Below, one piece after another: positions 6,918 through 49,467 of a stretch of 64,000 bases of DNA. Position 1 is the stretch's first letter, and each line of letters opens with the position of its first letter. The DNA is from Naegleria gruberi (lineage: Eukaryota). The stretch lies in NCBI GenBank assembly GCA_000004985.1, contig GG738875.1; one strand, given 5' to 3'. The translations under genes were made by a program, and so were the position numbers. Under the pieces are notes generated by a model. It searched no databases and was not told where the DNA came from. It worked only from the letters and a program-made list of their open reading frames with translations.

Positions 6918-7016
6918 TATCGCTCTTTGTTTTTCTGTTTCGTTTGCAATGTTAAGTTTCCCACAACTGCTTGTCTGTTTTGAAATGGTAGACTTGTGCC
7001 CTTTGTGCCTCCAATG

Positions 7017-7529
7017 TTAATAGAATAATGTTAATGTGCTGAATTTTTGTTCGAGAATGTCCTTTGAAATGTAACTCACTAATTGAGGTTTGTGGACCCA
7101 ATAGGCAATCGTGTGACTAGTGGCATTCACAAATGGTTGTTTGTTTTTCTTAAATCTATCACTGATATTTGCTTCAGTTTCTTGTATGTCGGCTCCTCTT
7201 AGAAACTTCAAATCAGATCCCTTAAAATTGTCTAAAAGAAGGAAAATCGCTTTAGTAAAGTCAAGGCTCATTCCTCCCTCAACAAGACCAAGCATTAAAA
7301 CTTTGCAAAAAGTTAAAGAGTCCCACAAATGATAATTTTCAAAATAAATCCTCTCGGAGTTTTTTTCTATTGTAGATTGCATTGTATTATTTACTTCTTT
7401 TGAGGATTGAGTTGTGGTGTTGTTCCTTTCTGTTACGGTTTGGCTTTCATTGTTTTGAGTTGTGTTGAAGAGAAATATTAAAAAAGCGATGAATGCAATA
7501 AACAAAATCAAATAGTCTGTTAAGGTCAT
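7017..7529 (-). CDS. Signal-anchor N-glycosylation-rich hypothetical protein (copy 1, C-terminus frameshifted relative to copy 2)
   Basis: ATG at 7529. N-terminal hydrophobic segment LILFIAFIAFLIFLF. Copy 2 reads on as YTLEAQRAQVYHFKTDK, whereas copy 1 has a 1-nt difference creating TAA at 7017. Confidence 0.45.
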   Translation of the reverse strand: MTLTDYLILFIAFIAFLIFLFNTTQNNESQTVTERNNTTTQSSKEVNNTMQSTIEKNSERIYFENYHLWDSLTFCKVLMLGLVEGGMSLDFTKAIFLLLDNFKGSDLKFLRGADIQETEANISDRFKKNKQPFVNATSHTIAYWVHKPQLVSYISKDILEQKFSTLTLFY

Positions 7530-8153
7530 TTTTTACATATTCTCCCATAAAAAATTGTTAGAACTAAGTACATCCACCATATTAAGACAAAATCTAGCAC
7601 ATTTATCATGCAATTTTATTGCAGTCTGTGAGTGAAGTAAATATGATAAATTGCCACTCTCTATACGTTAGAATTCAACGTCGTGGACTCTTGCTCAGTT
7701 CCAGAGGATTGTGAAACTTGGAATTATTGCTTCCTGTGTGTCAAAACACCATAATCCAAGTCATAATTGTGGTTGTTAAAAGGGAGGGTGGTATGTGGAT
7801 CGGAAGTTCAAATACTCTAATGAACAATCATAAACGACAAAATTTCGAAAATAATATCATCATGAAAAAGGTTAAATACTGTACAAGCTCCTTCCTAGTT
7901 CGTGTTGGTGTTTTTTAATAATGTATCGGGTGAGATTTCACTTACTGTAGTCGTTGGATTATCTACACACGAGGTATACATTTGAATTTCCAACATTTAA
8001 ACCCCACCAACTCCAAAACTTGCTTGAAATTCCGCTCACTCTTCCATTAAGATTCAAAATTAAGGAGTAGATTAGTAGCCGATTAAGGTCACCATCTACA
8101 GCTCAAATATAAAGCTGATTGGAAACCAGGTAACAATACTCCATATCGAAAAA

Positions 8154-8770
8154 ATGTTCAAATTCAACACCATCTATCTTTTAGTTGTTGTGGTAACTCT
8201 TTTCATCGCTTTGATAAACAACAATTCTCATGTCAATGCTCTTCAGTTGCAAACAAGAGCAAATTCCACATGTCAAGTTATGATTAACGGAGCAGAAGTT
8301 AATATTGCATCCATCGATAGACCAAAAGGATATTTTATCATTGCAAGATCTGATCATAATATCAAGTTCCTTCTGTAAGTTGTTTCGTTATGTGACATTT
8401 GCTTAATGTGTGAAAATGTAGTAATCTTTGTAATGCTTCTCCTAATCCATATTACTGGAATTCACTTTGTAAATTCCCAGCTAAATCTGCTGGATATCAA
8501 TTCGCTTTTGAATATAATCTTTGTTATTCACTTTCAACTCCAGAAAATCCAAAAGTTTCTTACAATAGTGAAACTAAAACAGTTACCATTACTCATCCTC
8601 CAAGTGTTATCAATAGAGATGGAGTTTCAAGACAAATGAAAGTTAGCTTAGTGTGTGACAGAAATTCAAGTTTGTGGCCAGAATTGGATTTCGAAGGAGA
8701 ACAAAACTTGTTGTCTATCGTTTCTCTGGAAAGACAAGTTATATTTGTCATTAATGAATCCTTTGCTGAT
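8154..8770 (+). pseudogene. MRH (mannose-6-phosphate receptor homology)-like domain protein, copy 1 with a 10-nt deletion
   Basis: Exon 1 8154..8374 (signal peptide), GTAAGT intron, exon 2 from 8422. Relative to copy 2 the string AGATATGGAG is missing near 8706, causing a frameshift before the last conserved Cys of the domain. Confidence 0.35.
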
Positions 8771-9219
8771 AAAGATCTTTCAATTTGTTTCTAATTGTTA
8801 GTTTACTTTTCGTATTATCCATGTTGGAAAATTCACCATTAGTGAATTTTATTGATGGTTTGATGATGATGATCATATAGATATTTACCTTAATGATCGG
8901 AAGTGAATTTGCTGGTGATCTTTATCATAAACGCTATTCCAAAATGATGATGAGTTCAGTGATGATGTAGAGGAGTGGAAAGTGAGTAGAGAGCAATCAT
9001 TTTGTTTCTACATTGCTGTTGTTGATTTTGTAGCAGTTGTTTATTGCTTCCCAAGGAAAAAATTGATCAATTATGGCTTAATTTTTGATTTTGCATGACC
9101 AATTTGATTGTAAGAAATATCAAGTGATGTTAATTGTTTCATTTCACTTATGAATTTGGCTCCTTCATTATCAATTTCATTGCTACTAATATTAAGTAAT
9201 GTTAATTGTTTCATTTCGC

Positions 9220-9924
9220 TTATAATTTTGATTTTGCATGACCAATTTGATTGTAAGAAATATCAAGTGATGTTAATTGTTTCATTTCACTTATGAATTT
9301 GGCTCCTTCATTATCAATTTCATTGCTACTAATATTAAGTAATGTTAATTGTTTCATTTCACTTATGAATTTGGCTCCTTCATCACCAATTTGATTGTTA
9401 GAAATATCAAGTGATGTTAATTGTTTCATTTCACTTATGAATTTGGCCCCTTCATCATCAATTTCATTGCTACTAATATTAAGTAATGTTAATTGTTTCA
9501 TTTCAGTTATGAATTTGGCTCCTTCAATACCAATTTGATTGTTAGAAATATCAAGTGATGTTAATTGTTTCATTTCAGTTATCGATTTAGCTCCTTCATC
9601 ACCAATTCGATTGCAACCTATATTAAGTGATGTTAATTGTTTCATTTCACTTATGAATTTGGTGTTTTCTATGTCACCAAGCAACCAACCAGAAAAATTA
9701 AGATTAACAATACTATTCACGAATTGACTTTTTCTGAATAGTTCAATTCTTTTCTCTGTAAACTTTTTTTTAAATTCAATTACAAGTTTTGAACGTTCCT
9801 TGATCACATTAAAGAATTGTTTTGAAATTAAAGAACAATTATTCAAAATAAACCATGAATCATCAATCATGGAAATTATTTCAAAGCAAACATCATCCGA
9901 AAATATTTCAATCTTCATCTCCAT
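9220..9924 (-). CDS. F-box / leucine-rich repeat (RNI-like) protein, copy 1, truncated
   Basis: Probable start at MEMKIEIF (ATG ~9924). F-box-like DDVCFEIISMIDDSWFILNNCSLISKQF, then 24-aa repeats ISxNxIGxEGAKFISEMKQLTxL encoded by 72-bp tandem units. A duplicated ~145-bp 3'-end fragment at 9216..9360 introduces the stop at 9220. Confidence 0.55.
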   Translation of the reverse strand: MEMKIEIFSDDVCFEIISMIDDSWFILNNCSLISKQFFNVIKERSKLVIEFKKKFTEKRIELFRKSQFVNSIVNLNFSGWLLGDIENTKFISEMKQLTSLNIGCNRIGDEGAKSITEMKQLTSLDISNNQIGIEGAKFITEMKQLTLLNISSNEIDDEGAKFISEMKQLTSLDISNNQIGDEGAKFISEMKQLTLLNISSNEIDNEGAKFISEMKQLTSLDISYNQIGHAKSKL

Positions 9925-10763
9925 ATTGTTATGATTGATCACAATTATTAATATTAATATTATTAGTATTCTTATATATTTGATATAGTTTGTTGTAACT
10001 TGTTTGTTCTTTGCTTTTCGACTTGACACCTTCTTGATATTTGCTTTTAAATATTTTTTTTGGTTCTAAACTCGAAGAGGAAATGATTCGTGATAATTTT
10101 TCTGGATCGCTGACTTCAAATGATTGGTAAGGTGACACAATATCCAACCATTATCTGTGGATATGAAGTAATATTTCAGATCGTTGTCAGCATTTTTCCT
10201 CAGTGAATCTGTAGTTTCACTCTTGAGAGCCTTATTTATCATTGCTCATGCGAAGAGGAGCTTTGAACAATAGGAGAGGTAGAAATGACAAACCTACAGA
10301 CAGATGCCATCCTTTCCACGTGACATATATCAACTGGAGATGAAAGCACTTGTGTGTCAAAACACCATAATCTAAATCTTAATTCTGAGCTAACCACCCC
10401 TTTCAATTGTTTTGAACACTGAGTAATAATTACTGGTAATAAATAGCTGAATTGGTCAAAATTTAGAAAAGATTCAACACTGCTTCCCATTGAATTTTCA
10501 AAACAATTGTCATTATTAATAAAATCCAATTTAAACATGTCAATCCGTCCTACCAAAGATGGAGATCAAGTTATCAATTCACATACTGGTTAGCCGTTCT
10601 TGTTCAATTACCAAATTATTTCACATGATTCAAAAAACATCAGTGATTAAAATTTACCTGTAGTTCTGACAGAGGCAAATTAGTCAACAAGAATGTCAAA
10701 TGTCTACATCATTTCATTCACAAAAAAATATCAACAAAATAGCAACATCAAAAACACATCAAA

Positions 10764-11029
10764 ATGGGTAACGGTATTTCTAGAGACGAAATGAAACAGC
10801 TTCAAGAGCAAACTAAAAATCGTTTGACCAAGAAGGACATTCAACGTTATCACAAATTCTGGCATGAGCTCTACCCAAGTGGTGACATGACAAGAGAAGG
10901 TTTCAGTAAATTTGCACAAATTGCTCTTCCAAGTGCTCCTCCAGATGCTGATGTTGAATACTTGTTCAGAGCCATGGATGCTAACAAGGATGGTACTATT
11001 ACTGTAAGTGTGTTATATATTTTGAAATA
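10764..11029 (+). CDS. Exon 1 of NCS/recoverin-family EF-hand gene (copy 1, interrupted by the gap)
   Basis: Identical to 14939..15178 (MGNGISRDEMKQL...DANKDGTIT) followed by GTAAGT. Sequence runs into the Ns at 11074. Confidence 0.5.
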
Positions 11030-11073
11030 GTAGTGGTTTTTACGCTAATTGATGATGATGATTTTGATATTAT

Positions 11074-11123: not shown

Positions 11124-11684
11124 CTTGTCTGTTTTGAAATGGTAGACTTGTGCCCTTTGTGCCTCCAATGTATAATAGAATAATGTTAATGTGCTGAATT
11201 TTTGTTCGAGAATGTCCTTTGAAATGTAACTCACTAATTGAGGTTTGTGGACCCAATAGGCAAGCGTGTGACTAGTGGCATTCACAAATGGTTGTTTGTT
11301 TTTCTTAAATCTATCACTGATATTTGCTTCAGTTTCTTGTATGTCGGCTCCTCTTAGAAACTTCAAATCAGATCCCTTAAAATTGTCTAAAAGAAGGAAA
11401 ATCGCTTTAGTAAAGTCAAGGCTCATTCCTCCCTCAACAAGACCAAGCATTAAAACTTTGCAAAAAGTTAAAGAGTCCCACAAATGATAATTTTCAAAAT
11501 AAATCCTCTCGGAGTTTTTTTCTATTGTAGATTGCATTGTATTATTTACTTCTTTTGAGGATTGAGTTGTGGTGTTGTTCCTTTCTGTTGCGGTTTGGCT
11601 TTCATTGTTTTGAGTTGTGTTGAAGAGAAATATTAAAAAAGCGATGAATGCAATAAACAAAATCAAATAGTCTGTTAAGGTCAT
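11124..11684 (-). CDS. Signal-anchor hypothetical protein, copy 2 (3' end runs into the gap)
   Basis: ATG at 11684. Same protein as 7017..7529 but the frame stays open to the N gap. Confidence 0.45.
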
Positions 11685-12308
11685 TTTTTACATATTCTCC
11701 CATAAAAAATTGTTAGAACAAAGCACATCCTCCATATTAAGACAAAATCTAGCACATTTATCATGCAATTTTATTGCAGTCTGTGAGTGAAGTAAATATG
11801 ATAAATTGCCACTCTCTATACGTTAGAATTCAACGTCGTGGACTCTTGCTCAGTTCCAGAGGATTGTGAAACTTGGAATTATTGCTTCCTGTGTGTCAAA
11901 ACACCATAATCCAAGTCATAATTGTGGTTGTTAAAAGGGAGGGTGGTATGTGGATCGGAAGTTCAAATACTCTAATGAACAATCATAAACGACAAAATTT
12001 CGAAAATAATATCATCATGAAAAAGGTTAAATACTGTACAAGCTCCTTCCTAGTTCGTGTTGGTGTTTTTTAATAATGTATCGGGTGAGATTTCACTTAC
12101 TGTAGTCGTTGGATTATCTACACACGAGGTATACATTTGAATTTCCAACATTTAAACCCCACCAACTCCAAAACTTGCTTGAAATTCCGCTCACTCTTCC
12201 ATTAAGATTCAAAATTAAGGAGTAGATTAGTAGCCGATTAAGGTCACCATCTACAGCTCAAATATAAAGCTGATTGGAAACCAGGTAACAATACTCCATA
12301 TCGAAAAA

Positions 12309-12919
12309 ATGTTCAAATTCAACACCATCTATCTTTTAGTTGTTGTGGTAACTCTTTTCATCGCTTTGATAAACAACAATTCTCATGTCAATGCTCTTCA
12401 GTTGCAAACAAGAGCAAATTCCACATGTCAAGTTATGATTAACGGAGCAGAAGTTAATATTGCATCCATCGATAGACCAAAAGGATATTTTATCATTGCA
12501 AGATCTGATCATAATATCAAGTTCCTTCTGTAAGTTGTTTCGTTATGTGACATTTGCTTAATGTGTGAAAATGTAGTAATCTTTGTAATGCTTCTCCTAA
12601 TCCATATTACTGGAATTCACTTTGTAAATTCCCAGCTAAATCTGCTGGATATCAATTCGCTTTTGAATATAATCTTTGTTATTCACTTTCAACTCCAGAA
12701 AATCCAAAAGTTTCTTACAATAGTGAAACTACAACAGTTACCATTACTCATCCTCCAAGTGTTATCAACAGAGATGGAGTTTCAAGACAAATGGAAGTTA
12801 GCTTAGTGTGTGATAGAAATTCAAGTTTGTGGCCAGAATTGGATTTCGAAGGAGAACAAAACAGATATGGAGTTGTTGTCTATCGTTTCTCTGGAAAGAC
12901 AAGTTATATTTGTCATTAA
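12309..12919 (+). CDS. Secreted MRH-domain (mannose-6-phosphate receptor homology)-like protein
   Basis: Exon 1 12309..12529 (signal peptide MFKFNTIYLLVVVVTLFIAL), intron 12530..12576 (GTAAGT...TAG), exon 2 12577..12919 (TAA). Six-Cys pattern, with C..Y.F.....C, VSLVC and the terminal YRFSGKTSYIC typical of MRH domains. Confidence 0.55.
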
Positions 12920-13246
12920 TGAATCCTTTGCTGATAAAGATCTTTCAATTTGTTAGATTATTGACTTTTCTAATTGTTGGTTTACTTTTCGTATTATCCA
13001 TGTTGGAAAATTCACCATTAGTGAATTTTATTGATGGTTTGATGATGATCATATAGATATTTACCTTAATGATCGGAAGTGAATTTGCTGGTGATCTTTA
13101 TCATAAACGCTATTCCAAAATGATGATGAGTTCAGTGATGATGTAGAGGAGTGGAAAGTGAGTAGAGAGCAATCATTTTGTTTCTACATTGCTGTTGTTG
13201 ATTTTGTAGCAGTTGTTTATTGCTTCCCAAGGAAAAAATTGATCAA

Positions 13247-14101
13247 TTATGGCTTAATTTTTGATTTTGCATGACCAATTTGATTGTAAGAAATATCAAG
13301 TGATGTTAATTGTTTCATTTCACTTATGAATTTGGCTCCTTCATTATCAATTTCATTGCTACTAATATTAAGTAATGTTAATTGTTTCATTTCACTTATG
13401 AATTTGGCTCCTTCATCACCAATTTGATTGTTAGAAATATCAAGTGATGTTAATTGTTTCATTTCACTTATGAATTTGGCCCCTTCATCATCAATTTCAT
13501 TGCTACTAATATTAAGTAATGTTAATTGTTTCATTTCACTTATGAATTTGGCTCCCTCAACACCAATTTCATTGCTACTAATATTAAGTAATGTTAATTG
13601 TTTCATTTCACTTATGAATTTGGCCCCTTCAACACCAATTTGATTGCTAGAAATTTTAATTGATGTTAATTGTTTCATTTCAGTTATGAATTTGGCTCCT
13701 TCAATACCAATTTGATTGTTAGAAATATCAAGTGATGTTAATTGTTTCATTTCAGTTATCGATTTAGCTCCTTCATCACCAATTCGATTGCAACCTATAT
13801 TAAGTGATGTTAATTGTTTCATTTCACTTATGAATTTGGTGTTTTCTATGTCACCAAGCAACCAACCAGAAAAATTAAGATTAACAATACTATTCACGAA
13901 TTGACTTTTTCTGAATAGTTCAATTCTTTTCTCTGTAAACTTTTTTTTAAATTCAATTACAAGTTTTGAACGTTCCTTGATCACATTAAAGAATTGTTTT
14001 GAAATTAAAGAACAATTATTCAAAATAAACCATGAATCATCAATCATGGAAATTATTTCAAAGCAAACATCATCCGAAAATATTTCAATCTTCATCTCCA
14101 T
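13247..14101 (-). CDS. F-box / leucine-rich repeat (RNI-like) protein, copy 2 (~285 aa, 9 repeats)
   Basis: As copy 1 but with two more 72-bp/24-aa repeat units and a different C-terminus (…GHAKSKIKP). Probable ATG at 14101 (MEMKIEIF). Confidence 0.65.
   Translation of the reverse strand: MEMKIEIFSDDVCFEIISMIDDSWFILNNCSLISKQFFNVIKERSKLVIEFKKKFTEKRIELFRKSQFVNSIVNLNFSGWLLGDIENTKFISEMKQLTSLNIGCNRIGDEGAKSITEMKQLTSLDISNNQIGIEGAKFITEMKQLTSIKISSNQIGVEGAKFISEMKQLTLLNISSNEIGVEGAKFISEMKQLTLLNISSNEIDDEGAKFISEMKQLTSLDISNNQIGDEGAKFISEMKQLTLLNISSNEIDNEGAKFISEMKQLTSLDISYNQIGHAKSKIKP
13253..13870. repeat. 72-bp tandem coding repeats (LRR units)
   Basis: Periodic repeats of ...GTTAATTGTTTCATTTCACTTATGAATTTGGC... 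visible directly in the DNA. Repeat number differs between the two copies of the block. Confidence 0.85.
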
Positions 14102-14938
14102 ATTGTTATGATTGATCACAATTATTAATATTAATATTAGTATTCTTATATATTTGATATAGTTTGTTGTAACTTGTTTGTTCTTTGCTTTTCGACTTGA
14201 CACCTTCTTGATATTTGCTTTTAAATATTTTTTTTGGTTCTAAACTAGAGAAGGAAATGATTCGTGATAATTTTTCTGGATCGCTGACTTCAAATGATTG
14301 GTTAGGTGATACAATATCCAACCATTATCTGTGGATATGAAGTAATATTTCAGATCTTTGTTGAGGACTCAGCATTTTTCCTCAGTGAATCTGTAGTTTC
14401 ACTCTTGAGAGCCTTATTTATCATTGCTCATGCGAAGAGGAGCTTTGAACAATAGGAGAGGTAGAAATGACAAACCTACAGACAGATGCCATCCTTTCCA
14501 CGTGACATATATCAACTGGAGATGAAAGCACTTGTGTGTCAAGACACCATAATCTAAATCTTAATTCTGAGCTAACCACCCCTTTCAATTGTTTTGAACA
14601 CTGAGTAATAATTACTGGAAATAATATATAGCTGAATTGGTCAAAATTTAAAAAAGATTCAACACTGCTTCCCATTGAATTTTCAAAACAATTATATCCA
14701 ATATAAACATGTCAATCCGTCCTACCAAAGATGGAGATCAAGTTGATATCAATTCACATACTGGTTAGCCGTTCTTGTTCAATTACCAAATTATTTCACA
14801 TGATTCAAAAAACATCAGTGATTAAAATTTACCTGTAGTTCTGACAGAGGCAAATTAGTCAACAAGAATGTCAAATGTCTACATCATTTCATTCACAAAA
14901 AAATATCAACAAAATAGCAACATCAAAAACACATCAAA

Positions 14939-15973
14939 ATGGGTAACGGTATTTCTAGAGACGAAATGAAACAGCTTCAAGAGCAAACTAAAAATCGTTT
15001 GACCAAGAAGGACATTCAACGTTATCACAAATTCTGGCATGAGCTCTACCCAAGTGGTGACATGACAAGAGAAGGTTTCAGTAAATTTGCACAAATTGCT
15101 CTTCCAAGTGCTCCTCCAGATGCTGATGTTGAATACTTGTTCAGAGCCATGGATGCTAACAAGGATGGTACTATTACTGTAAGTGTGTTATATATTTTGA
15201 AATAGTAGTGGTTTTTACGCTAATTGATGATGATGATTTTGATATTATTATTTGTGTGTATGATGTGTTATAATTTCTTGTTATTGTTGATGTAAATTTG
15301 ATATGATTTGATATATGATCATGGAATATTTCGTTATTATGTTGTTATGAATTGTTTAAAATTATTAATTGGAATGTTAATGATGCAATACGTAATTTTA
15401 CATAACGATCATCATGATGAACTTCTACACTAATTATTACCATTGCTACCACTTGAATATTTTGCATTGATTGTATATATATGAATATTTATAATCGTTT
15501 AATAATAACACATTGATCAAACTCTTCCGAAAACACTCTACAATTCAGTTCAAAGAATTCCTCTTCTTCCAATCTATCACTGCTCCAACAACACAACCTC
15601 TTCAATTCCATGAATTAATTGATTTGGCCTTTGATATGTACGATGAAGACAATGATGGGTATGTTTTTACATCTATTTAACTAATTAATCAATACAATAT
15701 ATATTATTAATATTATCATCATCAATTCATCATCATCAAAATACAACAACAATTATATATAGCTTTGTAACTGCCGAAGAAATGAGAGACAGTTTAAGGA
15801 ACATGTTCAAGGCTAAGGGCATGAATGTAAACTCTTCAGAAATTGAGGGAACCATCAATACTCGTATTGAAAATCTGCTCAAGATTGCCGATAGTAATGG
15901 TGATGGAAAACTCACCCGAGATGAAATTGTTAAGGCTTGCCAAAAAGATCCATCTCTCTTGGTCTTGTTCTAA
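14939..15973 (+). CDS. Neuronal-calcium-sensor / recoverin-family EF-hand protein (3 exons, ~186 aa)
   Basis: Exons 14939..15178, 15549..15658, 15763..15973. Introns begin GTAAGT and GTATGT and end CAG and TAG. Total 561 nt, in frame. N-terminal MGNGIS (myristoylation consensus). EF loops DANKDGTITFKEF, DEDNDGFVTAEEM, DSNGDGKLTRDEI. Similar to NCS-1/frequenin (LTKKDIQRYHKFWHE.PSGDMTREGF). Confidence 0.75.
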
Positions 15974-21237: not shown

Positions 21238-24200
21238 TTAAATTCTTTCTTCTTCTGTTCTATCCTCAATACCTGAATAGTCAACCGAATCAACAACTTC
21301 CTGCTCTTGGTGACCTTCCTGTTGTTCTTCATAGGTTTCATCCTCTGGATCTTGATTTTCATCGTGTTGTTCTTCAAAATCATTATCAAAATCCTCAAAC
21401 TCTTCCTCTTCCACTTCTTGGACAACTTGTTGTTGAGGTTGATATTCTTCCTGCTGTTGATCATCATAATAATTATTATTATTATCAGTATTATCCTGTG
21501 AAACATGAACCACTGAAAAATCTTCAGTTCTGAGAGTGTCTGATTGAGGAGCCTCAGAGGTGTCAAAATGAGAATTATCAAACTCTTCAAAATCGCCAAA
21601 AGATGTCTCAGTCTCTCCTGTTGTCTTGATTTCACTAACACCCAAAGAGGCACTAAGTGGGAGATATGCATCCGTTGCAGTCATTATCTCTATTGGATTC
21701 TGGTTGGCTTGAGTTTGGAACATTTGAGATGTATCATGTTGCGGTTCATAGTTTTGATTCTCATTTCCTTCATCATATTGTTTAAGGAAATCTTCTGCTG
21801 ATTGAGGTTGATTTGGAGCATATCCATTGGATTCTTCTTCTTCTTGTGTTTCTTCAACCTCAATAACTGGCGTTGGATCATGATCGCCATGGAATTGAGA
21901 AAATTGATAGCCTTGATCTTCTTCCTCTTCTTGTGTTTCCTCAACCTCAATAACTGGCTTGGTATTGATTTCCTTCTCTTTCTTCTCCTTCTTCTTTTCC
22001 TTTTTATCCTTTTTGTCCTTCTTGTCCTTCTTTTTCTTTTTTTCTTCTTCAGATGAAGATGAAGAGGAAGAGTCTGTACTCTCTTCGACCTCTTCAACTT
22101 TTCTTGGTGATGGTTTTTTCACACTAGACTCTATTATTGGAGATCTCTTTTGACTACTCTTAACGTCCTTCAAGGCTTGCATGCCGTTTTCCTTCTTGAT
22201 TTGATTGTAATTATCTCGTAAGAGTGTTATCAACTTGTTTTGATTCTTCCACAATTCCTTTTCTCTGAATGACATTCCTCTTGTATCAACTCTGGTCATT
22301 GAAGAAAAGAGTTTGTTTGGATTGTCAACAAACTCTTCCATAATAGCTTGATAACTTCTCTGTAAATTATTGTACCTGTCATTATTTTCCTTAATAGTTT
22401 TATACAGTTCTGAGGGTATGGTAATCATTTCCTCTGGTTCTTCCTCTTGTTTTTGGCTCTTTCTTGCCAAAAGTTTAAGTGTATCGGCTAGCTGAGGAAT
22501 GAGGCCACTCATTGTGGTTCCTTCTCTTTCATCATCCTCTTGTTGCTGATGTAAATTTTCCAAAACATGTCTAGCCAATTCCTCCTCCAACCGAACTGAC
22601 TTGTCCACTTTTTTTGAAGTTTTCATACTACTCGTTGCACTTGAGGGGGTTACAGTTTTTTTCTTTGATACAGAAGATTTCGTTGATGAGGAAGCAGATT
22701 GTGGTTTTCTTACTGTTGATGTTCCATGTAAGACATGATACCAATCCTTGGTTGGTTGTTCAAGGTAAGAGTTTGTATTTCTTCCAAGTGTTACGTTTTT
22801 CTTTCTCATACTCAATGAGTCAACTGTCTTTGTACTATTGCTTAGAGAACTGGGTCTGGAAGGGTTTGCTGATGAGGGCCTTTTAATTGGTTGCGTATTT
22901 AAAACCTTTCCTGATGAGGTAATTGATTTTTTCTTGACCTTCTTTTTCGTTTGTCTTTCCTCCACGAAACGTTGAGGCTCCCCTTTCAACTGTCTTGAAA
23001 TATCAGCCAGTTGATTTGCCATCGTATTGATTTGATTCTCTATTTGTCCTCTCATCATGATTGTTTGAGCCTGAGTATCCTTGTAGTGTTGTACAAGAGT
23101 AGACAGTGCTCCCATCTCTCCGTTTGCCATTGTACCTAGCATTGGATTGTATGTATTTTGTACAGGTTGATTTTGGAATGTGTTATCAGTTACAGTAAAC
23201 AGAGGATTTCTTGTGACAGCTCCTGTTTGCATTCTCAATGACTTGTCCATGGTACCAGAGTGTGGACCTCCATCAGTCATTGGTCTCTGTAATGAGAAAC
23301 TCTTGGAAAAGTTTTGAGTCAAGTATTCATTAAAATTATCTATTGGACCTGCCTTAACAAGTGACCTCAATCTCACATCCATATCAATCACTCCAACATC
23401 GTATCCTCTATCATTTTTAATTGTAAATGTTCCACTAATGGTACGTTTCTGTGGTATTCTTTCACCTTTTGGAGCATCAATTTCATCCGAAACTTTCAAT
23501 TCATTGAGAGGTATACTAACACTTCCTATAAGAACTGGTTTCCAATTACCACGACCCATATTAGGATCAGCCATACTTCCTCCGTATGTCATGTCAGTAG
23601 GTGAGGCTGTCAAAATGAATAAAAACACATAGAGGGGTAATGTTTGGATATATTGTCCCAATTCCATTCTTTCCATTGAAAATACTACACTTTTTCCTGT
23701 TCTAAATAACATATTATGTGATGAGACTTTTTCCTGATTCTTCATCATACCAGTTCCATAAAAACTTGTTTGCTTAAATCCTTCTTTAAACATTCTATTT
23801 TCTTGGGTGTCATCTCTTCCATAGGGACCCTCAGGTTTTTGAATGTACATTAGAGGAAACTCCCACAATCTGAATCCTATACAACTGTCATTGGAGAGGA
23901 GTGGATTTGTAGTTTTATAGATGAAATGAGAAACTTCGTGAATGTAGACATCAAGAGACCATAAACTGAGAATAGAGTATGTCACTTTAATTTTAAGTGA
24001 ACCTTGAAACTTACTTTGAGTCAACTTCTGATATTTCTTCCTCTTCATAGTAGTCGTTTTGAGAAGATAAAGATGAGGTGGATCGAGGTGAATCCTCCAC
24101 TAATTGTTGTTGAGAACGAGAAGTGTTTTTCATAGATGATGGTTTCCTTGAAGAGGATGATGAGCCAGCATCTTGTCTGTAATTTGATGAAGAAGGTTCA

Positions 24201-24412
24201 GGTTGTGTTTGATAATTCGTTCCAATAGTTGGCTGTGTTTTTTTCATCTTACTTTGATGAGGTTGATATTCATAGGGAACAGAATCCGATCCTTCTTTCC
24301 TACTTTTTGGTTGTTGTTTTGTATCAAATGACACCATTCCTCCAGTCCAACTCGATTGAGAGGTACTATGATCATTAGGGTATTTATGTATCGATACTTT
24401 AGAATTCATCAT
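21238..24412 (-). CDS. Large (~1050 aa) protein with beta-sandwich (C2-like) region, K/E-rich segment and acidic repeat tail
   Basis: Exon 1 24412..24015 (ATG ATG at 24412; ends ...EVDS-K/N with GTAAGT donor at 24014). Intron ends either at 23966 (49 nt, pyrimidine tract TCTATTCTCAG) or 23870 (145 nt); both keep frame. Exon 2 runs to TAA at 21238. Internal PVIEVEETQEEEE repeat and a (K/E/D)-rich block. Confidence 0.55.
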
Positions 24413-24677: not shown

Positions 24678-26735
24678 TTAATGGAAAGCACCTCCATTAA
24701 CATTCAAAGTGTTACCACCCAAATTGTAAATGTAACCATACAAGTTGACATTGTTAAAGTTGAAAACACCCTTAGTCAAGACGTTACCATAGAATGGACC
24801 ATTAACAGCAACACTGTTACCAATAACCCAGAAAACATTGTTTTGAGTGGCACCATTGGTGAAAACAAAGTTGATATTGTTGGCATTCAAGTTGGTGCTC
24901 AACTTTAAGACAATCTTACCAGTACCAGAGAAGGTAACCTTGCTGTTACCATTCAAACCTTGTGGGAAACAGTAGACACCAGCAGTGAAAGTCAAACCAG
25001 CACTTGGAATGTTTTGATCCAAATTGCTTTGAGTACAAGTGGCAGCAAACAATTCATCATACTTGGCAATGGCATTTTCAATAACTTCAGCAGATTCACC
25101 ATTAGCAACATTGACAGCATAACCAGAGGCAGCAACGAGTTTTTGAACAGCAAAGGCTCTATCAGTGGCAACACTTCCTGGAACAGTCAATGAGGCAGAG
25201 TTTTGAACCAAGATGGATCCCTTTGAAATGACCTTGTATGGAGTCAAGATAGTACCAAAGGTAGTATCATAGTCACATGGCAAGACATTTGGAACGACAT
25301 ATGAGTCAGTAGTGAACTTCAAGTATGGAATTGTCTTATCTTCAAAGTATCCATCGAAAGTCAATTCAATAGTGAGAGCAGTGTAACCTTGAGCTGGATT
25401 TGGGAAGAAGACTTCATATTCGAATGGGTTTCCAGTAGCCTTTGGAGCAACAGTAACAGCAGTGAAAATTCTACCAATAGTGGTTTGTCTGAAATCTCTA
25501 CCATTTGGATTGTTGGCAGACCACAACTTGACAGCAGTAGGAACCTTACCATTCAAAATGTTCAACTTGACATTAACACCAGCAGCAGTGTAAGTGTGAG
25601 AGAAGGTATATTCAGGAAGTTCAATATTTTTCAAGACAGCATAGTAGAATGAGGCAACAGTCAAGACAACATCGGAACCAGTCATACCGTGACCAGTATT
25701 TGGAATATATCTCAAGTGCTTGTTCTTTCTATTTGGCATATCATTATAACTCAAAGTACTCATATCTGGCCAGAAGAATTCATCACCCATAGAGTTGACC
25801 ATATATTTTCTGTACTTGGCAAGATCTTCCTTCCATTCGAATGGATCAATAACTTCACAGAGCTTGGTAAAACCATAAGAGTTGACGTGTGGAGTGAAAC
25901 CAGCAGCAATATAATCATACATGGCAATTGGGAAGTCACAGAGAGAATTGTAAATGTGCTTGATAGCCTTTTGAGTATTTGGAATTTGAATAACGAGTGG
26001 AATGAGAGCCTTAACTCTTGGATCATTGGCAATACCAACTGTCCAAGTAGTCCAACCTCTCTTTGAGGCACCAGCAACAGTGAATTTTTCAATAGTGACA
26101 CCTGACACTTTGGTTGGCACAAAAGATTGAGTAGTATCCAATGCCAAGAGAGATGCCTTAGTCATAGGAAGTCTTGGAATCCACTTAACGTCCCTTGGGA
26201 AGTCGACTATATGCTTCCAAGCATATCCGATAATACCATCTTCAACTCTAACTTGATGCAATGGATCATTGGCATATGTCAATGGTTGATTAGGAATCAT
26301 CTTGACAGTGACACCAATAGTTTTACCAACAGTAGCCATAGCAATAGTGATTGGATCACCAGTTGGAAGACCATCAGTGGTATCTCCGTTAGTAATATAC
26401 ACAAAAGCTTCCTTTAAGCTTTTATCCAAATTGGTTGGAACAACAACTTCGAGATAGTGGAACCACAATGCACGATAACCAAATTCTTCTGGCAACCATT
26501 CAACTGAGGTCATATTAAGTACATATACAGTAGCACCAGTAACGGTGAATTCACTCAATAATTGATATGAATATTTTGGAGTTGGCTTATTTACATAGTC
26601 GGCCATAACTTTCTTATAGTCGATAATTTTGGTTGGGTCAGCAGCAATGTCAAATTGGTCTTCTGCATTGGAAAGGGCAGCAACAAGAGCCAAAATAACA
26701 GCCAACAAGACAATCAAGCTCTTTGAAAGCTTCAT
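24678..26735 (-). CDS. Secreted PhoPQ-activated-pathogenicity-related (PqaA)-like domain fused to ice-binding-like (DUF3494) domain
   Basis: 685-codon ORF, ATG at 26735, signal peptide MKLSKSLIVLLAVILALVAALSNA. N-terminal ~420 aa has PqaA-like features (YxxLSEF...W, GASKRGWTTW). C-terminal ~200 aa matches the DUF3494/IBP beta-helix pattern (GLTFTAGVYCF ... NVFWVIGNSVAVNG ... GNVLTKGVFNF). Confidence 0.65.
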   Translation of the reverse strand: MKLSKSLIVLLAVILALVAALSNAEDQFDIAADPTKIIDYKKVMADYVNKPTPKYSYQLLSEFTVTGATVYVLNMTSVEWLPEEFGYRALWFHYLEVVVPTNLDKSLKEAFVYITNGDTTDGLPTGDPITIAMATVGKTIGVTVKMIPNQPLTYANDPLHQVRVEDGIIGYAWKHIVDFPRDVKWIPRLPMTKASLLALDTTQSFVPTKVSGVTIEKFTVAGASKRGWTTWTVGIANDPRVKALIPLVIQIPNTQKAIKHIYNSLCDFPIAMYDYIAAGFTPHVNSYGFTKLCEVIDPFEWKEDLAKYRKYMVNSMGDEFFWPDMSTLSYNDMPNRKNKHLRYIPNTGHGMTGSDVVLTVASFYYAVLKNIELPEYTFSHTYTAAGVNVKLNILNGKVPTAVKLWSANNPNGRDFRQTTIGRIFTAVTVAPKATGNPFEYEVFFPNPAQGYTALTIELTFDGYFEDKTIPYLKFTTDSYVVPNVLPCDYDTTFGTILTPYKVISKGSILVQNSASLTVPGSVATDRAFAVQKLVAASGYAVNVANGESAEVIENAIAKYDELFAATCTQSNLDQNIPSAGLTFTAGVYCFPQGLNGNSKVTFSGTGKIVLKLSTNLNANNINFVFTNGATQNNVFWVIGNSVAVNGPFYGNVLTKGVFNFNNVNLYGYIYNLGGNTLNVNGGAFH

Positions 26736-27458: not shown

Positions 27459-28955
27459 TTACCAGAACACATTGAAGTATGGTTCGATTTCATGTTCATA
27501 AAGAAGATCATCATCTTGTTCAATTTTCACAAAGGCAAAACAATTCACCTCCACAATGTGATCCTTGGCTTGCTCTTCATTGTCAACCTGGTAAACTACT
27601 TGATCGCAAACATTGCAAAATCTATTACTATTTTTGTAAACTTGTAGAGATTCAAATTTGAGAGGACATTTGTAGATACATTCGCATTGATTGACTAAAT
27701 TCCATTCATACTCTTTAATTCTGTAATATTTCTTTCGTTCTTTTGAAATATTAATAGTAGGATTATGTATTTTGATGTGATTGATTCTTCTTCTAAGAAC
27801 GCAAAGCCAATTCTTGATATTTAGGTTGTTTCCATTAAAGTTTGGAAAATAAAAACAAACTAATGGTTTCCAAATTTCCAATTGAACTCTTTCAAATGCT
27901 GAACTTTCTTCATTGACGATAGAGGTGATGTTATCGACAACATGACAAAGGGCTCCAGAATTATCTGATTGTGGATCTATTCTTCTATTGAAGAATAGAC
28001 TCAATAATGATTGGTTTACCCATCGCAAATCTATTCAATTCTGATAAATTCAGAAACTTCCAATCAGTATTAGAATCTCAGATGGCAATTCATAGATAGT
28101 AAATTGTGAAATAGATTCTCCAGTACCCAAATCCACATTAATACTACAAATATTCATTAATCCATTTAAAATACTGTGTGGAATAGATGCTGAATTGGGA
28201 ATATCCAATTCTAATCCAATACTTGCCACATTATCCATTGCTTCCTGAACTAACTTATTCAATTCGGGTGTGGTCGTTAAATTCATTAATTTCATATATG
28301 AACGGTTCCAAACCACAGGTGAATTCTCATAGTAATTCAACACCTTCAATCCATATTCAATTACTGGCATCATGTCTAACATTTCCAATAAATCAGCTTG
28401 CATTTTTCCAATTTTCTCTCCCTCACTCAAAATTAAACAATCTCTACAAGATTCCACCTGTCCCACTATTGTTCGAAACACAACTCCCAATTGTTGAAAC
28501 ATTGGAGCAAGTATAGGAACTGGAATGGTGGCGGTGAATCCACTTCTGATGTAAATATTGCGTGGAGATCTTTCTCCAATTTTTGCCCTTGTTTCAAATT
28601 TGAAAGATTGAATTTGTTCAATCAATTCTTCAATTTCTGATGAATTTGTAAAGATTAGTCCAACATTTCCATTCAAATATTCGCAAATTTTGAGTAATGA
28701 CTCTGGATTGTGTTTCCTCTCCGAGGGTTTCACATTAAATTGAATGTCCTGAGCCAAGTTTCGAATAGCACTCTTGATCAATGTATTCTTTCCTTTCAAT
28801 AATATTGCTCTTCCTCTCAATTTCATTCGAATTATTTGCAATTGATCCGATTTCATACGAGTATCTATTTCAACAATAATTACATTCGAATGATCATGAA
28901 AATGTTGAATGACATCCTCGAATTTTACACTATTTTCATCATCATTCATTTTCAC
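27459..28955 (-). pseudogene. P0(uL10)-like / F-box / Cys-His finger gene, paralog B, disrupted by a -1/+1 indel pair
   Basis: ORFs 28050..28955 (P0-like domain ending in ELPSEILILIGSF) and 27459..28028 (rest of F-box + CxxC finger). Compared with paralog A there is a 1-nt deletion near 28041 and a 1-nt insertion near 28006, 35 nt apart, creating two in-frame TGA codons. Both indels lie in short homopolymers. Confidence 0.5.
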
Positions 28956-29273: not shown

Positions 29274-30689
29274 TCATTCATCCCAATAAATAATTCCCAT
29301 AGCTAAATCATCATCGTATTCATCCCCTCCTTCCACAAAAGCAATGCAATTTCCCTTAATGATATGATGTTTGGCTTGTTCTTCACTACCAACTTGGTAA
29401 ACTATCTTGTTGCAGACATTACACATTCTACTGGAAGAGGTGTGAAGTGGAAGAGAATCGTATTTGAGAGGACATTTGTAGATCCATTCACATTGGTTGA
29501 TGAGATTCCATTCGTAACTCTTAATTGCAAAAGATTCGTTTCTTGCTGATGCAAGGTTGACTGAAGGCATGTGTAGCTTGATATGGTCAATTCTTCTTCT
29601 GAGAACGTGGAGCCAATTCTTGATATTTAAATTATTTTTCCTAAAGTTAGGGAAGTAGAAACAAACTAATGGTTTCCAAATTTCCAATTGAACTCGTGTA
29701 AATAGTTCACTCTCTTCATTTATCATAGCAATTGAATTCTTGAGTGATTTCTCAATTGAATGAGATTGTGAAATAATTCTTCTATTGAAGAATAGACTCA
29801 ATAATGATTGATTACCCATCGCAAATCTATTCAATTCTGATAAATTCAAGAAACTTGCAATTAATATCAAAATTTCAGATGGTAATTCATTTACAGTAAA
29901 TTGTTGAATGGAATTAATTGTTCTCAGTTCTACCAAAACTCGACCGACATTCAATAATCCATTGAAAAGACTATGTGGAATAGATGCTGAATTCGGAATA
30001 TCCAATTCTAATCCAATACTTGCCACATTATCTACTGCTTCCTGAATTATACTATTCAAATTTAGAGATGCTCTCAGGTTTTCATATGTTTGATTCCAAA
30101 CCACGTGTGAATTTTCATAGGAAGCTACCACTTTCAGTCCGTATGCAATCATCGGTTCCATCTTCAACAATTCCAAAAAATCTGCCTTTTCCTTTGTAAT
30201 TTTCTCTCCAGCTCTCAAAAGTAAAAAATCTGTCGATGCATATACATCCTGTTGAGCTATGTCTCCAACCTTTGCCTTTGCTTCAAATTTGAAAGATTGA
30301 ATTTGTTCAATCAATTCTTCAATTTCTGTTGAATTTGTAAAGATTAGTCCAACATTTCCTCTCAAATATTCGCAAATTTGATAAAGAACTTCTGGATTGT
30401 GCTTCCACTCTGATGGTTTCACATTAAATTGAATATCCTGAGCCAAGTTTCGAATAGCACTTCTGATCAATGTATTCTTTCCCACCAATAATTCGGCCTT
30501 CTCTCTCAATTTCATTCGAACTATTTGTAACTGATCCGATTTCATTCGAGGATGTATTTTAATAATAATTACATTCGAATGATCATGAAAATGTTGAATG
30601 ACCTTCTCGAATTTTGCACATTTATGAGAGAGACCCTTCTTTTCGGAATGAAATTGTTGTTTTGAAGCTGATTCGTCCAAGTTTTTCAT
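29274..30689 (-). CDS. Ribosomal stalk protein P0 (uL10)-like domain fused to F-box and C-terminal Cys/His zinc-finger-like domain, paralog A
   Basis: 471-codon ORF, ATG at 30689. The N-terminal ~250 aa matches the P0 core (SDQLQIVRMKLREKAELLVGKNTLIRSAIRNL; LRGNVGLIFTNSTEIEELIEQI; AVDNVASIGLELDIPNSASIPHSLFNGL). It has no acidic P-protein tail. Instead it carries an F-box (LPSEILILIASFLNLSELNRF..SLLSLF) and then CEWIYKCPLK..CNVCNKIVYQV..KHHIIKGNC. Confidence 0.7.
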   Translation of the reverse strand: MKNLDESASKQQFHSEKKGLSHKCAKFEKVIQHFHDHSNVIIIKIHPRMKSDQLQIVRMKLREKAELLVGKNTLIRSAIRNLAQDIQFNVKPSEWKHNPEVLYQICEYLRGNVGLIFTNSTEIEELIEQIQSFKFEAKAKVGDIAQQDVYASTDFLLLRAGEKITKEKADFLELLKMEPMIAYGLKVVASYENSHVVWNQTYENLRASLNLNSIIQEAVDNVASIGLELDIPNSASIPHSLFNGLLNVGRVLVELRTINSIQQFTVNELPSEILILIASFLNLSELNRFAMGNQSLLSLFFNRRIISQSHSIEKSLKNSIAMINEESELFTRVQLEIWKPLVCFYFPNFRKNNLNIKNWLHVLRRRIDHIKLHMPSVNLASARNESFAIKSYEWNLINQCEWIYKCPLKYDSLPLHTSSSRMCNVCNKIVYQVGSEEQAKHHIIKGNCIAFVEGGDEYDDDLAMGIIYWDE

Positions 30690-49080: not shown

Positions 49081-49161
49081 GTTGAGGTGGCCGAGTGGTT
49101 AAGGCGCCAGCCTGCTAAGTTGGTGGAGTAATCCGCGTGGGTTCGAATCCCATCCTCAACG
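49081..49161 (+). tRNA. tRNA-Ser (anticodon GCU)
   Basis: GTTGAGGTGGCCGAGTGGTTAAGGCGCCAGCCTGCTAAGTTGGTGGAGTAATCCGCGTGGGTTCGAATCCCATCCTCAACG. Long variable arm, anticodon loop CTGCTAA, G73 discriminator. Confidence 0.85.
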
Positions 49162-49165
49162 TTTT
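49162..49165 (+). terminator. Pol III T-run terminator downstream of tRNA-Ser
   Basis: TTTT immediately 3' of the tRNA. Confidence 0.6.
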
Positions 49166-49467
49166 CTTCTAGTAACTTTTTTTGAAAATTCACAATATAA
49201 AGGACATTCATCATTCTGTCTGTAAATTTAATTATTAAAAAATATACATTCAAACTGATCAACTAGTTCATCTTACTTGATATGTTTATCATGATAAACA
49301 CATGTTGCATGGTGGAGAGAAGGTCTTTAAGGGTGTGAAGTATATTATGAGATCAGATATAATGTATTCGAAACGTGAAGAATTAAAATACTAATTTCTT
49401 CTCTTGAATAATGATAAACTTGACAAACTATTCGAATCATAGTATTGAATATTCCAATAAAACTAAT

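What the first reader, a model, noticed from the sequence alone, without database searches (positions are those of the whole stretch)
24678..26735. Secreted fusion of a PqaA-like domain with an ice-binding-like (DUF3494) beta-helix
The N-terminal 420 aa look like the PhoPQ-activated pathogenicity-related family, which is bacterial but also expanded in dictyostelids. The last ~200 aa match the DUF3494/IBP right-handed beta-helix (GLTFTAGVYCF; NVFWVIGNSVAVNG; GNVLTKGVFNF). I am not aware of this two-domain combination having been described. It could be a surface-binding or adhesin-like module attached to a hydrolase-like domain.
Basis: partly seen in the sequence, partly recalled or inferred. 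Interest (0 to 1): 0.6.

Follow-up and report, generated by a model that had tools for sequence, protein, structure and literature searches.

The report
Amoeba hydrolase fused to ice-binding-like domain
A gene of the soil amoeba Naegleria gruberi encodes a secreted enzyme-like protein whose tail folds like microbial ice-binding proteins; the combination is real and apparently unique to this species, but the tail is more likely a general surface-binding module than an antifreeze.

Summary

The organism is Naegleria gruberi NEG-M, not a dictyostelid. The protein is XP_002675978.1 / UniProt D2VJ80, annotated only as 'predicted protein'. The same ORF occurs on an independent metagenome contig, so it is not an assembly artefact.

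No other protein examined shares the fusion: 119 PqaA-like homologues, 126 module relatives and 75 metagenome loci were checked, including the closest N. fowleri and N. lovaniensis homologues.

The module belongs to a divergent Naegleria-type DUF3494 subfamily that Pfam mostly misses. It is also inserted in three giant adhesion-like N. gruberi proteins (EGF/REJ, cadherin-like/VWA) and follows a subtilase on a Naegleria-like metagenome contig.

Most likely it is a non-catalytic binding or targeting module on a secreted or phagolysosomal serine hydrolase. Its ligand, any ice binding and the enzyme's substrate are untested. This is a new domain combination of two known families, of moderate interest.

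The parts
24678..26735 (-). Complete single-exon CDS, 685 aa plus stop. It is N. gruberi NAEGRDRAFT_49989 / XP_002675978.1 / UniProt D2VJ80.
   Evidence: ORF list and translation. Exact-sequence look-up names the organism and accessions. The same 2058-nt ORF lies on an independent ENA metagenome contig, with 5 nt and 2 aa differences.
26664..26735 (-). Predicted signal peptide, aa 1-24 (MKLSKSLIVLLAVILALVAALSNA).
   Evidence: This is the only Kyte-Doolittle hydrophobic window above 1.6 in the protein. It has small residues at -3/-1 (S-N-A). No other transmembrane segment and no hydrophobic C-terminus. It is an inference from sequence; no dedicated predictor was run.
25488..26603 (-). PhoPQ_related (PF10142; MEROPS S82) alpha/beta-hydrolase domain, aa 45-416.
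   Evidence: Pfam E=4e-94 with full profile coverage. There are 477 homologues, the best from Naegleria at 43-46% identity and then bacteria at 33-38%. The model has pLDDT mostly above 90. Fold matches are to alpha/beta-hydrolases.
26064..26066 (-). Ser224 codon, the putative nucleophile in the invariant G-x-S-K-R-G-W-T motif.
   Evidence: Invariant in a 28-sequence alignment. Codon checked.
25782..25784 (-). Asp318 codon, the putative catalytic acid in the G-D-x-F-F-x-P-D motif.
   Evidence: Invariant in a 28-sequence alignment. Codon checked.
25689..25691 (-). His349 codon, the putative catalytic base in the P-N-x-x-H motif.
   Evidence: Invariant in a 28-sequence alignment. Codon checked.
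25278..25613 (-). C-terminal beta-sandwich of the PqaA-like unit, aa 375-486. It is still part of the family, not of the added module.
   Evidence: Stand-alone homologues align to about aa 486, with invariant or near-invariant T475, T476, P482 and P486. The model shows eight beta-strands here.
25239..25277 (-). Short inter-domain linker, aa 487-499.
   Evidence: Residues 491-500 form one of the two 10-residue blocks with mean pLDDT below 70 (mean 67); the other is at the signal-peptide end. Homology to PqaA-like proteins ends just before the linker.
24681..25238 (-). DUF3494 / ice-binding-like right-handed beta-helix module, aa 500-685. It has the long flanking alpha-helix at aa 546-563 and a subfamily-conserved Cys567/Cys589 pair.

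Best explanation
The gene encodes a secretory-pathway, two-unit protein of Naegleria gruberi. The N-terminal unit (aa 25-486) is a PqaA/AprA-type (PF10142, MEROPS S82) alpha/beta-hydrolase with an intact Ser224-Asp318-His349 set, so it is probably a catalytically competent serine hydrolase. The C-terminal unit (aa 500-685) is a DUF3494 beta-helix of a divergent Naegleria-type subfamily. That subfamily has been shuffled as an extracellular module into several N. gruberi surface and adhesion proteins. I infer that the module is here a non-catalytic binding or targeting domain. It would hold the hydrolase on a repetitive solid surface (prey or own cell wall, glycan matrix, or cyst material), in the way a carbohydrate-binding module serves an esterase; ice is the less likely target. 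The fusion arose in the N. gruberi lineage by adding the module to the 3' end of a PqaA-like gene. Shown: the ORF, both domains, both folds, residue conservation, the module's recurrence in other architectures, and the absence of the fusion elsewhere in what was searched. Inferred: secretion, catalytic activity, the binding role and the ligand.
For: The architecture rests. Two independent assemblies carry the same ORF. The catalytic residues are invariant. The module recurs in N. gruberi D2UZF2 (EGF + module + PKD/REJ), D2VUR0 (Big_9/cadherin-like repeats + module + VWA) and D2VPE3 (4968 aa, teneurin-type EGF repeats with at least 4 modules). A Naegleria-like contig (35.5% GC) carries a Peptidase_S8 gene followed by the most similar module found, at 49-55% identity. 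Multi-domain, adhesion-type DUF3494 architectures, including a DUF3494-REJ combination, are documented in prokaryotes (PMC9957290). [quoted passage not shown] A Dictyostelium PF10142 protein is a major component of secreted, lysosome-derived multilamellar bodies, which fits a secretory or phagolysosomal location for this family in amoebae (PMC4920372).
Against: There is no direct evidence for any ligand, for secretion or for catalysis. The substrate class is open. The nearest solved folds are a mix of lipases, acetyl-xylan and glucuronoyl esterases and S9 peptidases at only 8-17% identity, whereas the one characterised eukaryotic family member, AprA, is reported to have DPPIV-like peptidase activity and to act as a signalling ligand (PMC8326840). 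The subtilase parallel is weakened by a frameshift and a deletion of about 18 aa inside its module on that contig. Absence of the fusion elsewhere is bounded by search sensitivity: only the top 120 of 477 PqaA hits were listed, and only 118 module hits were detectable with this divergent query.
Confidence: 0.6

Rival explanations
1. The module is a genuine ice-binding domain. The protein would adsorb to ice (ice adhesion, recrystallisation inhibition) and so contribute to freeze tolerance of N. gruberi in soil, with the hydrolase carried along or acting at the ice/cell interface.
Against: From general knowledge, N. gruberi NEG-M is a mesophilic soil and freshwater amoeba. The same module type sits inside giant EGF, cadherin-like and VWA adhesion-type proteins, which points to a general extracellular binding or structural role. 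The family is widespread in non-ice organisms where its function is unknown. No reason is apparent for tethering an alpha/beta-hydrolase to ice.
Confidence: 0.1
2. The protein is an AprA-like extracellular signal (chalone or chemorepellent). The module would mediate receptor, partner or matrix binding and shape the signal's range, with hydrolase chemistry secondary or dispensable.
For: AprA of Dictyostelium, a PF10142/S82 member, is a secreted autocrine proliferation repressor and chemorepellent. It acts through the GPCR GrlH and requires the partner CfaD (PMC5821085; PMC11878206). The target is also an amoeba protein with a signal peptide.
Against: The closest relatives are Naegleria and bacterial PqaA-like proteins, and no dictyostelid protein is among the top 120 hits. 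AprA orthology and the presence of GrlH or CfaD counterparts were not tested. Strict invariance of the Ser/Asp/His set argues that the family is under selection for catalysis.
Confidence: 0.15
3. The module is a C-terminal extension needed only for folding, secretion or latency, like the C-terminal pro- or PPC-type extensions of secreted proteases. It would be removed on maturation, so the mature enzyme is an ordinary PqaA-like hydrolase.
For: The same module follows a subtilase, a family well known from general knowledge for cleavable C-terminal extensions. The lower-confidence linker at aa 487-499 could be a processing site.
Against: In three other N. gruberi proteins the module is internal, flanked by EGF, cadherin-like or REJ domains. 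That does not fit a removable terminal pro-domain. The overall pTM of 0.80 suggests a defined two-domain arrangement.
Confidence: 0.12
4. The fusion is an artefact: two adjacent genes merged by mis-assembly or by reading through a missed stop or intron.
For: None was found. This is only the general prior for unique architectures in draft eukaryotic genomes.
Against: There is one uninterrupted ORF with no frame change. The identical architecture lies on an independently assembled metagenome contig that is 98.8% identical in DNA. The CDS diverges less (5 of 2058 nt) than the 9.2-kb region as a whole (1.16%). The junction is a 13-residue linker directly after the family's normal C-terminus.
Confidence: 0.02

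Closest known systems
PhoPQ_related family (PF10142; MEROPS S82): Salmonella PqaA and Dictyostelium AprA
   Same: The Pfam match is full-length (E=4e-94). The protein has the alpha/beta-hydrolase fold plus a C-terminal beta-sandwich and the invariant GxSKRGW / GDxFF / PNxxH residues. Like AprA it has an N-terminal signal peptide.
   Different: It carries an extra module of about 200 aa after the family's normal C-terminus. Stand-alone members are about 450-500 aa. Other C-terminal additions seen in bacteria are PKD, RCC1-type or other domains, never PF11999. Identity to the best homologues is only 43-46%.
Canonical single-domain DUF3494 ice-binding proteins (AnpIBP 7BWX, ColAFP 3WP9, FfIBP 4NU2, TisAFP 5B5H)
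   Different: Identity is only 18-23%. The host is not ice-associated. The module is appended to an enzyme. It belongs to a divergent Naegleria-type subfamily with a conserved Cys pair, and most members of that subfamily fall below Pfam's threshold. Ice binding is untested.
Multi-domain DUF3494 adhesin-like proteins (Shewanella SfIBP_1 6BG8, Flavobacteriaceae IBPv 5UYT; Arctic metagenome architectures with Ig-like, REJ and thrombospondin repeats)
   Different: The partners there are non-catalytic tethering or adhesion repeats. Here the partner is an alpha/beta-hydrolase. Those proteins are bacterial and mostly from ice.
Eukaryotic DUF3494 fusion: ice-binding protein with a root-cap domain in a glacier ice alga (PMC10796529)
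   Same: It is a precedent for a eukaryotic DUF3494 domain fused to an unrelated domain (title and abstract).
   Different: The partner domain differs (PF06830 root cap, non-enzymatic), the host is an obligate ice organism, and I did not read that paper beyond its abstract.
Carbohydrate esterases and other secreted hydrolases with appended non-catalytic binding modules (functional analogy only)
   Same: The logic is the same: catalytic alpha/beta-hydrolase, short linker, C-terminal beta-rich module. CE7 and CE15 esterases are among the nearest solved folds of the N-terminal domain.
   Different: There is no homology between DUF3494 and any CBM family. The similarity to CE7/CE15 is only at the generic alpha/beta-hydrolase level (8-17% identity). 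Substrate and ligand are unknown.

Membership tests
PhoPQ_related / PqaA-like (PF10142, MEROPS S82) | Match to the family HMM above the curated gathering score, over the whole model | tested here: met
   315.8 bits against a cut-off of 20.3, E=4e-94, profile positions 2-367 of 367.
PhoPQ_related / PqaA-like (PF10142, MEROPS S82) | Alpha/beta-hydrolase fold | tested here: met
PhoPQ_related / PqaA-like (PF10142, MEROPS S82) | Conserved putative Ser/Asp/His catalytic residues | tested here: met
   S224, D318 and H349 are invariant in 28 aligned family members including the target. The three-dimensional geometry of the triad could not be inspected because no coordinates were available.
PhoPQ_related / PqaA-like (PF10142, MEROPS S82) | Hydrolase (DPPIV-like peptidase) activity, as reported for AprA | not testable with these tools
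   The activity is claimed for AprA in PMC8326840. Testing it here needs a biochemical assay.
AprA-type chalone / chemorepellent system | Acts through a GrlH-type GPCR together with a CfaD-type partner; represses proliferation and repels cells | not tested
   The system is known only from Dictyostelium (PMC5821085).
DUF3494 / Ice_binding (PF11999) | Match to the family HMM above the curated gathering score | tested here: met
   41.9 bits against a cut-off of 28.7, E=1.2e-10, profile positions 15-185 of 208.
DUF3494 / Ice_binding (PF11999) | Right-handed beta-helix with one long alpha-helix packed alongside | tested here: met
Functional ice-binding proteins | Binds ice (ice shaping, thermal hysteresis, recrystallisation inhibition); flat, regularly spaced ice-binding face | not testable with these tools
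   Testing needs recombinant protein.
Functional ice-binding proteins | Host lives in an ice-associated habitat | not tested
   The host was identified as N. gruberi NEG-M. That it is a mesophilic soil and freshwater amoeba is general knowledge, not a result obtained here.

The most novel reading that the evidence does not exclude
Naegleria has domesticated the DUF3494 'ice-binding' beta-helix as a general, non-ice extracellular recognition module. It forms a divergent subfamily largely invisible to Pfam, shuffled into giant adhesion receptors and onto at least two kinds of secreted serine hydrolase. In this protein it would tether an AprA/PqaA-type hydrolase to a specific solid surface such as prey bacteria or cyst wall. 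That would give the first defined non-ice ligand and function for the large population of DUF3494 domains found in temperate organisms.
Probability: 0.35. Interest if true: 0.55.

Novelty: new variant of a known kind. Interest (0 to 1): 0.35.

Why it matters
DUF3494 is the commonest microbial ice-binding fold, yet most of its members occur in organisms that never meet ice, and no function is known for them. A DUF3494 module attached to an enzyme in a culturable mesophilic amoeba, and recurring in that amoeba's adhesion-type proteins, offers a concrete and experimentally tractable case for asking what else this fold binds. It also adds a lineage-specific variant to the barely characterised S82/PqaA/AprA family, whose substrates are unknown. 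The practical impact is modest: this is one lineage-restricted gene and no phenotype is attached to it.

Tried and rejected
1. Exact look-ups of four window proteins give N. gruberi NEG-M.

2. Word-indexed homologue searches with the C-terminal 201 aa and with an 8-sequence module alignment found almost nothing. Only the exhaustive phmmer run revealed relatives.

3. Synteny test: the closest N. lovaniensis homologue (P0004) lies in an unrelated neighbourhood and has no module remnant in the 225 bp before the next gene. Orthology versus paralogy therefore stays open. The N. fowleri protein could not be located on a contig.

4. No second copy of either domain occurs in the 64-kb window.

A rerun with 4 sequences gave 75 loci. 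These proved to be mostly canonical bacterial DUF3494 proteins, some with Ig-like repeats, and none had a PqaA-like sequence.

6. The AFDB fold library, which could have shown other two-domain proteins, was unavailable.

7. Model coordinates were not exposed, so triad geometry, the domain interface and the putative binding face could not be analysed.

8. NCBIfam gave only noise hits.

9. A dN/dS estimate between the two strains was abandoned because only 5 differences fall in the CDS.

10. I first took the subtilase+module protein P0132 to be cut by its contig end. That was wrong. Its module continues in the next called gene (P0134) after a frameshift and a deletion of about 18 aa.

Full report
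**1. What is there**

Window 24678..26735 on the minus strand is one uninterrupted ATG-to-stop ORF of 685 aa.

An exact-sequence look-up identifies the protein as Naegleria gruberi NAEGRDRAFT_49989. Its accessions are XP_002675978.1, EFC43234.1 and UniProt D2VJ80, it is annotated only as 'predicted protein', and it lies on a 396-kb scaffold. Three other window proteins are also N. gruberi NEG-M proteins. The neighbours are ordinary eukaryotic genes: alanyl-tRNA synthetase, a TLC-domain protein, a MAP10-like protein and ribosomal-P0-like proteins. The host is therefore a heterolobosean amoeba, not a dictyostelid.

**2. Domain claims**

Pfam gives two hits above its curated cut-offs:

| Family | Residues | Profile positions | E-value | Bits (cut-off) |
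|---|---|---|---|---|
| PF10142 PhoPQ_related | 45-416 | 2-367 of 367 | 4e-94 | 315.8 (20.3) |
| PF11999 Ice_binding (DUF3494) | 503-662 | 15-185 of 208 | 1.2e-10 | 41.9 (28.7) |

The C-terminal part also hits solved ice-binding proteins directly by sequence: 3WP9, 7BWX/7BWY and 6A8K, with E=2e-6 to 6e-5.

A full-length AlphaFold2 model was built on a 63-sequence alignment. It has mean pLDDT 92 and pTM 0.80. Only two 10-residue blocks average below 70: the signal-peptide end, and residues 491-500, which form the inter-domain linker.

Both domain assignments are therefore confirmed by sequence and by fold.

**3. Anatomy**

- **Signal peptide, aa 1-24.** The only hydrophobic segment is aa 1-26, followed by S-N-A|E-D. 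There is no other transmembrane segment and no hydrophobic C-terminus, so I infer a signal peptide and a soluble secretory-pathway protein.
- **PqaA-like unit, to about aa 486.** In a 28-sequence alignment, homology to stand-alone PqaA-like proteins (about 450-500 aa) extends to about aa 486. The family unit thus includes an eight-stranded beta-sandwich (aa 375-486) beyond the Pfam model.
- **Catalytic residues.** S224 (in G-x-S-K-R-G-W-T), D318 (G-D-x-F-F-x-P-D) and H349 (P-N-x-x-H) are invariant. The protein therefore keeps the residues expected of an active serine hydrolase. Their geometry could not be inspected because model coordinates are not exposed.
- **Linker and module.** After a 13-residue linker, the module occupies aa 500-685, with its long helix at aa 546-563. 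Cys567 and Cys589 are invariant within the subfamily. This fits a disulfide in an extracellular protein, which is an inference.

**4. Is the fusion real, and is it shared?**

The same ORF lies on an independently assembled ENA metagenome contig (ERZ929261, 9.4 kb) that is 98.8% identical in DNA. Within the CDS there are only 5 nucleotide differences, giving 2 amino-acid differences. The 9.2-kb region as a whole diverges by 1.16%. An assembly or gene-model artefact is therefore excluded.

No other protein examined shares the fusion:

- Among 477 whole-protein homologues, the 120 listed carry PF10142 without PF11999 and cover only 61-75% of the query. The best are N. fowleri (46% identity, 461 aa) and N. 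lovaniensis (43%, 496 aa).
- The N. lovaniensis gene has no module remnant and only 225 bp before the next gene. Its neighbourhood is not syntenic, so orthology is unresolved.
- A local phmmer search finds no PqaA-like domain in 126 module-related proteins and no module in 119 PqaA-like proteins.
- 75 module-bearing metagenome loci (474 kb) contain no PqaA-like sequence.

Full-text searches for DUF3494+Naegleria and for PF10142+PF11999 return nothing. The search for Naegleria+ice-binding returns only one unrelated perspective article.

Within these limits the fusion is restricted to N. gruberi. The limits are that only the top 120 PqaA hits were displayed, that a divergent query reduces sensitivity, and that the AFDB library was unavailable.

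**5. What the module is**

Word-indexed searches found no relatives. An exhaustive phmmer run against 1.84 billion representatives found 118 hits. The closest are not canonical ice-binding proteins:

- **N. gruberi D2UZF2** (1082 aa): EGF repeats, the module at aa 212-395, then PKD/REJ.
- **N. gruberi D2VUR0** (2816 aa): many Big_9 and cadherin-like repeats, the module at aa 1502-1684, then VWA.
- **N. gruberi D2VPE3** (4968 aa): teneurin-type EGF repeats with at least four modules.
- **An ENA protein** (446 aa) with a signal-peptide-like N-terminus and one module.
- **A subtilase** on a JGI contig of 35.5% GC.

Identities to the target's module are 40-45%. The subtilase-linked copy is the most similar, at 49-55%. 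In that contig the module is split by a frameshift and lacks about 18 residues, so it may be a pseudogene or a sequencing error.

Pfam does not detect the module in D2VUR0 or D2VPE3 at all, and detects it only below threshold (21.4 bits) in D2UZF2. Naegleria therefore has a divergent DUF3494 subfamily that behaves as a mobile extracellular module. The target's copy happens to be the one Pfam can see.

More distant hits and the metagenome loci are canonical DUF3494 proteins, single- or multi-domain, often with bacterial Ig-like repeats.

**6. Most likely function**

- **What is known of PF10142.** It equals MEROPS S82 and is described as 'barely characterised' (PMC11878206). Dictyostelium AprA is a secreted proliferation repressor and chemorepellent that acts through GrlH together with CfaD (PMC5821085). 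It is reported to have DPPIV-like protease activity (PMC8326840). Another Dictyostelium member is a major protein of secreted, lysosome-derived multilamellar bodies (PMC4920372).
[quoted passage not shown] In prokaryotes the domain is frequently combined with adhesion, tethering and REJ domains (PMC9957290).
- **Preferred reading (confidence about 0.6).** The protein is a secreted or phagolysosomal serine hydrolase, and the C-terminal DUF3494 beta-helix is a non-catalytic binding or targeting module for a repetitive solid surface. The logic is that of enzyme plus binding module.
- **Rivals.** True ice binding, about 0.1. An AprA-like signalling ligand whose module mediates partner or matrix binding, about 0.15. 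A cleavable C-terminal extension, about 0.12. An artefact, about 0.02.
- **Status.** Secretion, catalysis, substrate class and ligand are all inferred, not shown.

**7. Comparison and novelty**

The protein passes the testable membership criteria of both families: HMM score, fold and conserved residues. Functional criteria (enzyme activity, ice binding) cannot be tested here.

The two families are known, and multi-domain DUF3494 proteins are known, including one eukaryotic fusion to a root-cap domain (PMC10796529). The protein itself sits in public databases with both Pfam hits precomputed. What is new is the specific pairing of an S82 alpha/beta-hydrolase with DUF3494, its restriction to N. 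gruberi, and the recognition of a Naegleria-type module subfamily shuffled among adhesion-like proteins.

I classify this as a new variant of a known kind, with interest 0.35. It is a sound and tractable lead on the non-ice role of DUF3494, but it concerns a single lineage-specific gene without functional data.

Noticed in passing
window 6970-11073 and 11124-15248: A 4.1-kb tandem segmental duplication at 97.5% identity. Each copy contains an internal tandem-repeat array of roughly 72-bp period, at 9094-9662 and 13270-13839.
   Followed up: partly
window 27459-28955 (-) and 29274-30689 (-): Tandem paralogues (76-89% DNA identity) of a 'ribosomal P0-like' gene: a PF00466 Ribosomal_L10 domain joined to an F-box-like motif (LPSEILILI) and a Cys-rich C-terminus. 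The downstream copy is split into two ORFs (301 + 189 aa) in the window, but is called as one 496-aa gene on the ENA strain's contig L001.
   Followed up: no
L001 1-202 vs window 49085-49275: The first 202 nt of the ENA contig match a place 18 kb away from the collinear region, at 89% identity. This is either a dispersed repeat or a chimeric contig end.
   Followed up: no
N. gruberi proteins P0130 (D2VUR0), P0133 (D2VPE3), P0128 (D2UZF2): DUF3494-like modules in these giant EGF, cadherin-like, VWA and REJ proteins are missed (P0130, P0133) or scored below threshold (P0128, 21.4 bits) by Pfam PF11999. phmmer with the target's module nevertheless finds them at E from 2.5e-14 (P0133) to 3.5e-37 (P0128). 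The family model under-detects a Naegleria-type subfamily.
   Followed up: partly
L078 860-2738 (JGI metagenome 3300002220, contig MLSBCLC_10142330, 35.5% GC): A Peptidase_S8 (subtilase) gene is followed by the module most similar to the target's (49-55% identity). The module is interrupted by a frameshift and lacks about 18 residues, so it was called as two genes (P0132 + P0134). It is either a decaying copy or a sequencing error.
   Followed up: partly
window 21238-24048 (-) and 24011-24412 (-): The downstream neighbour is a 936-aa protein with a MAP10_N domain and very long acidic and lysine-rich low-complexity tracts. A 133-aa Ser-rich ORF overlaps its 5' end, so it may be an upstream exon or a mis-split start.
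   Followed up: no
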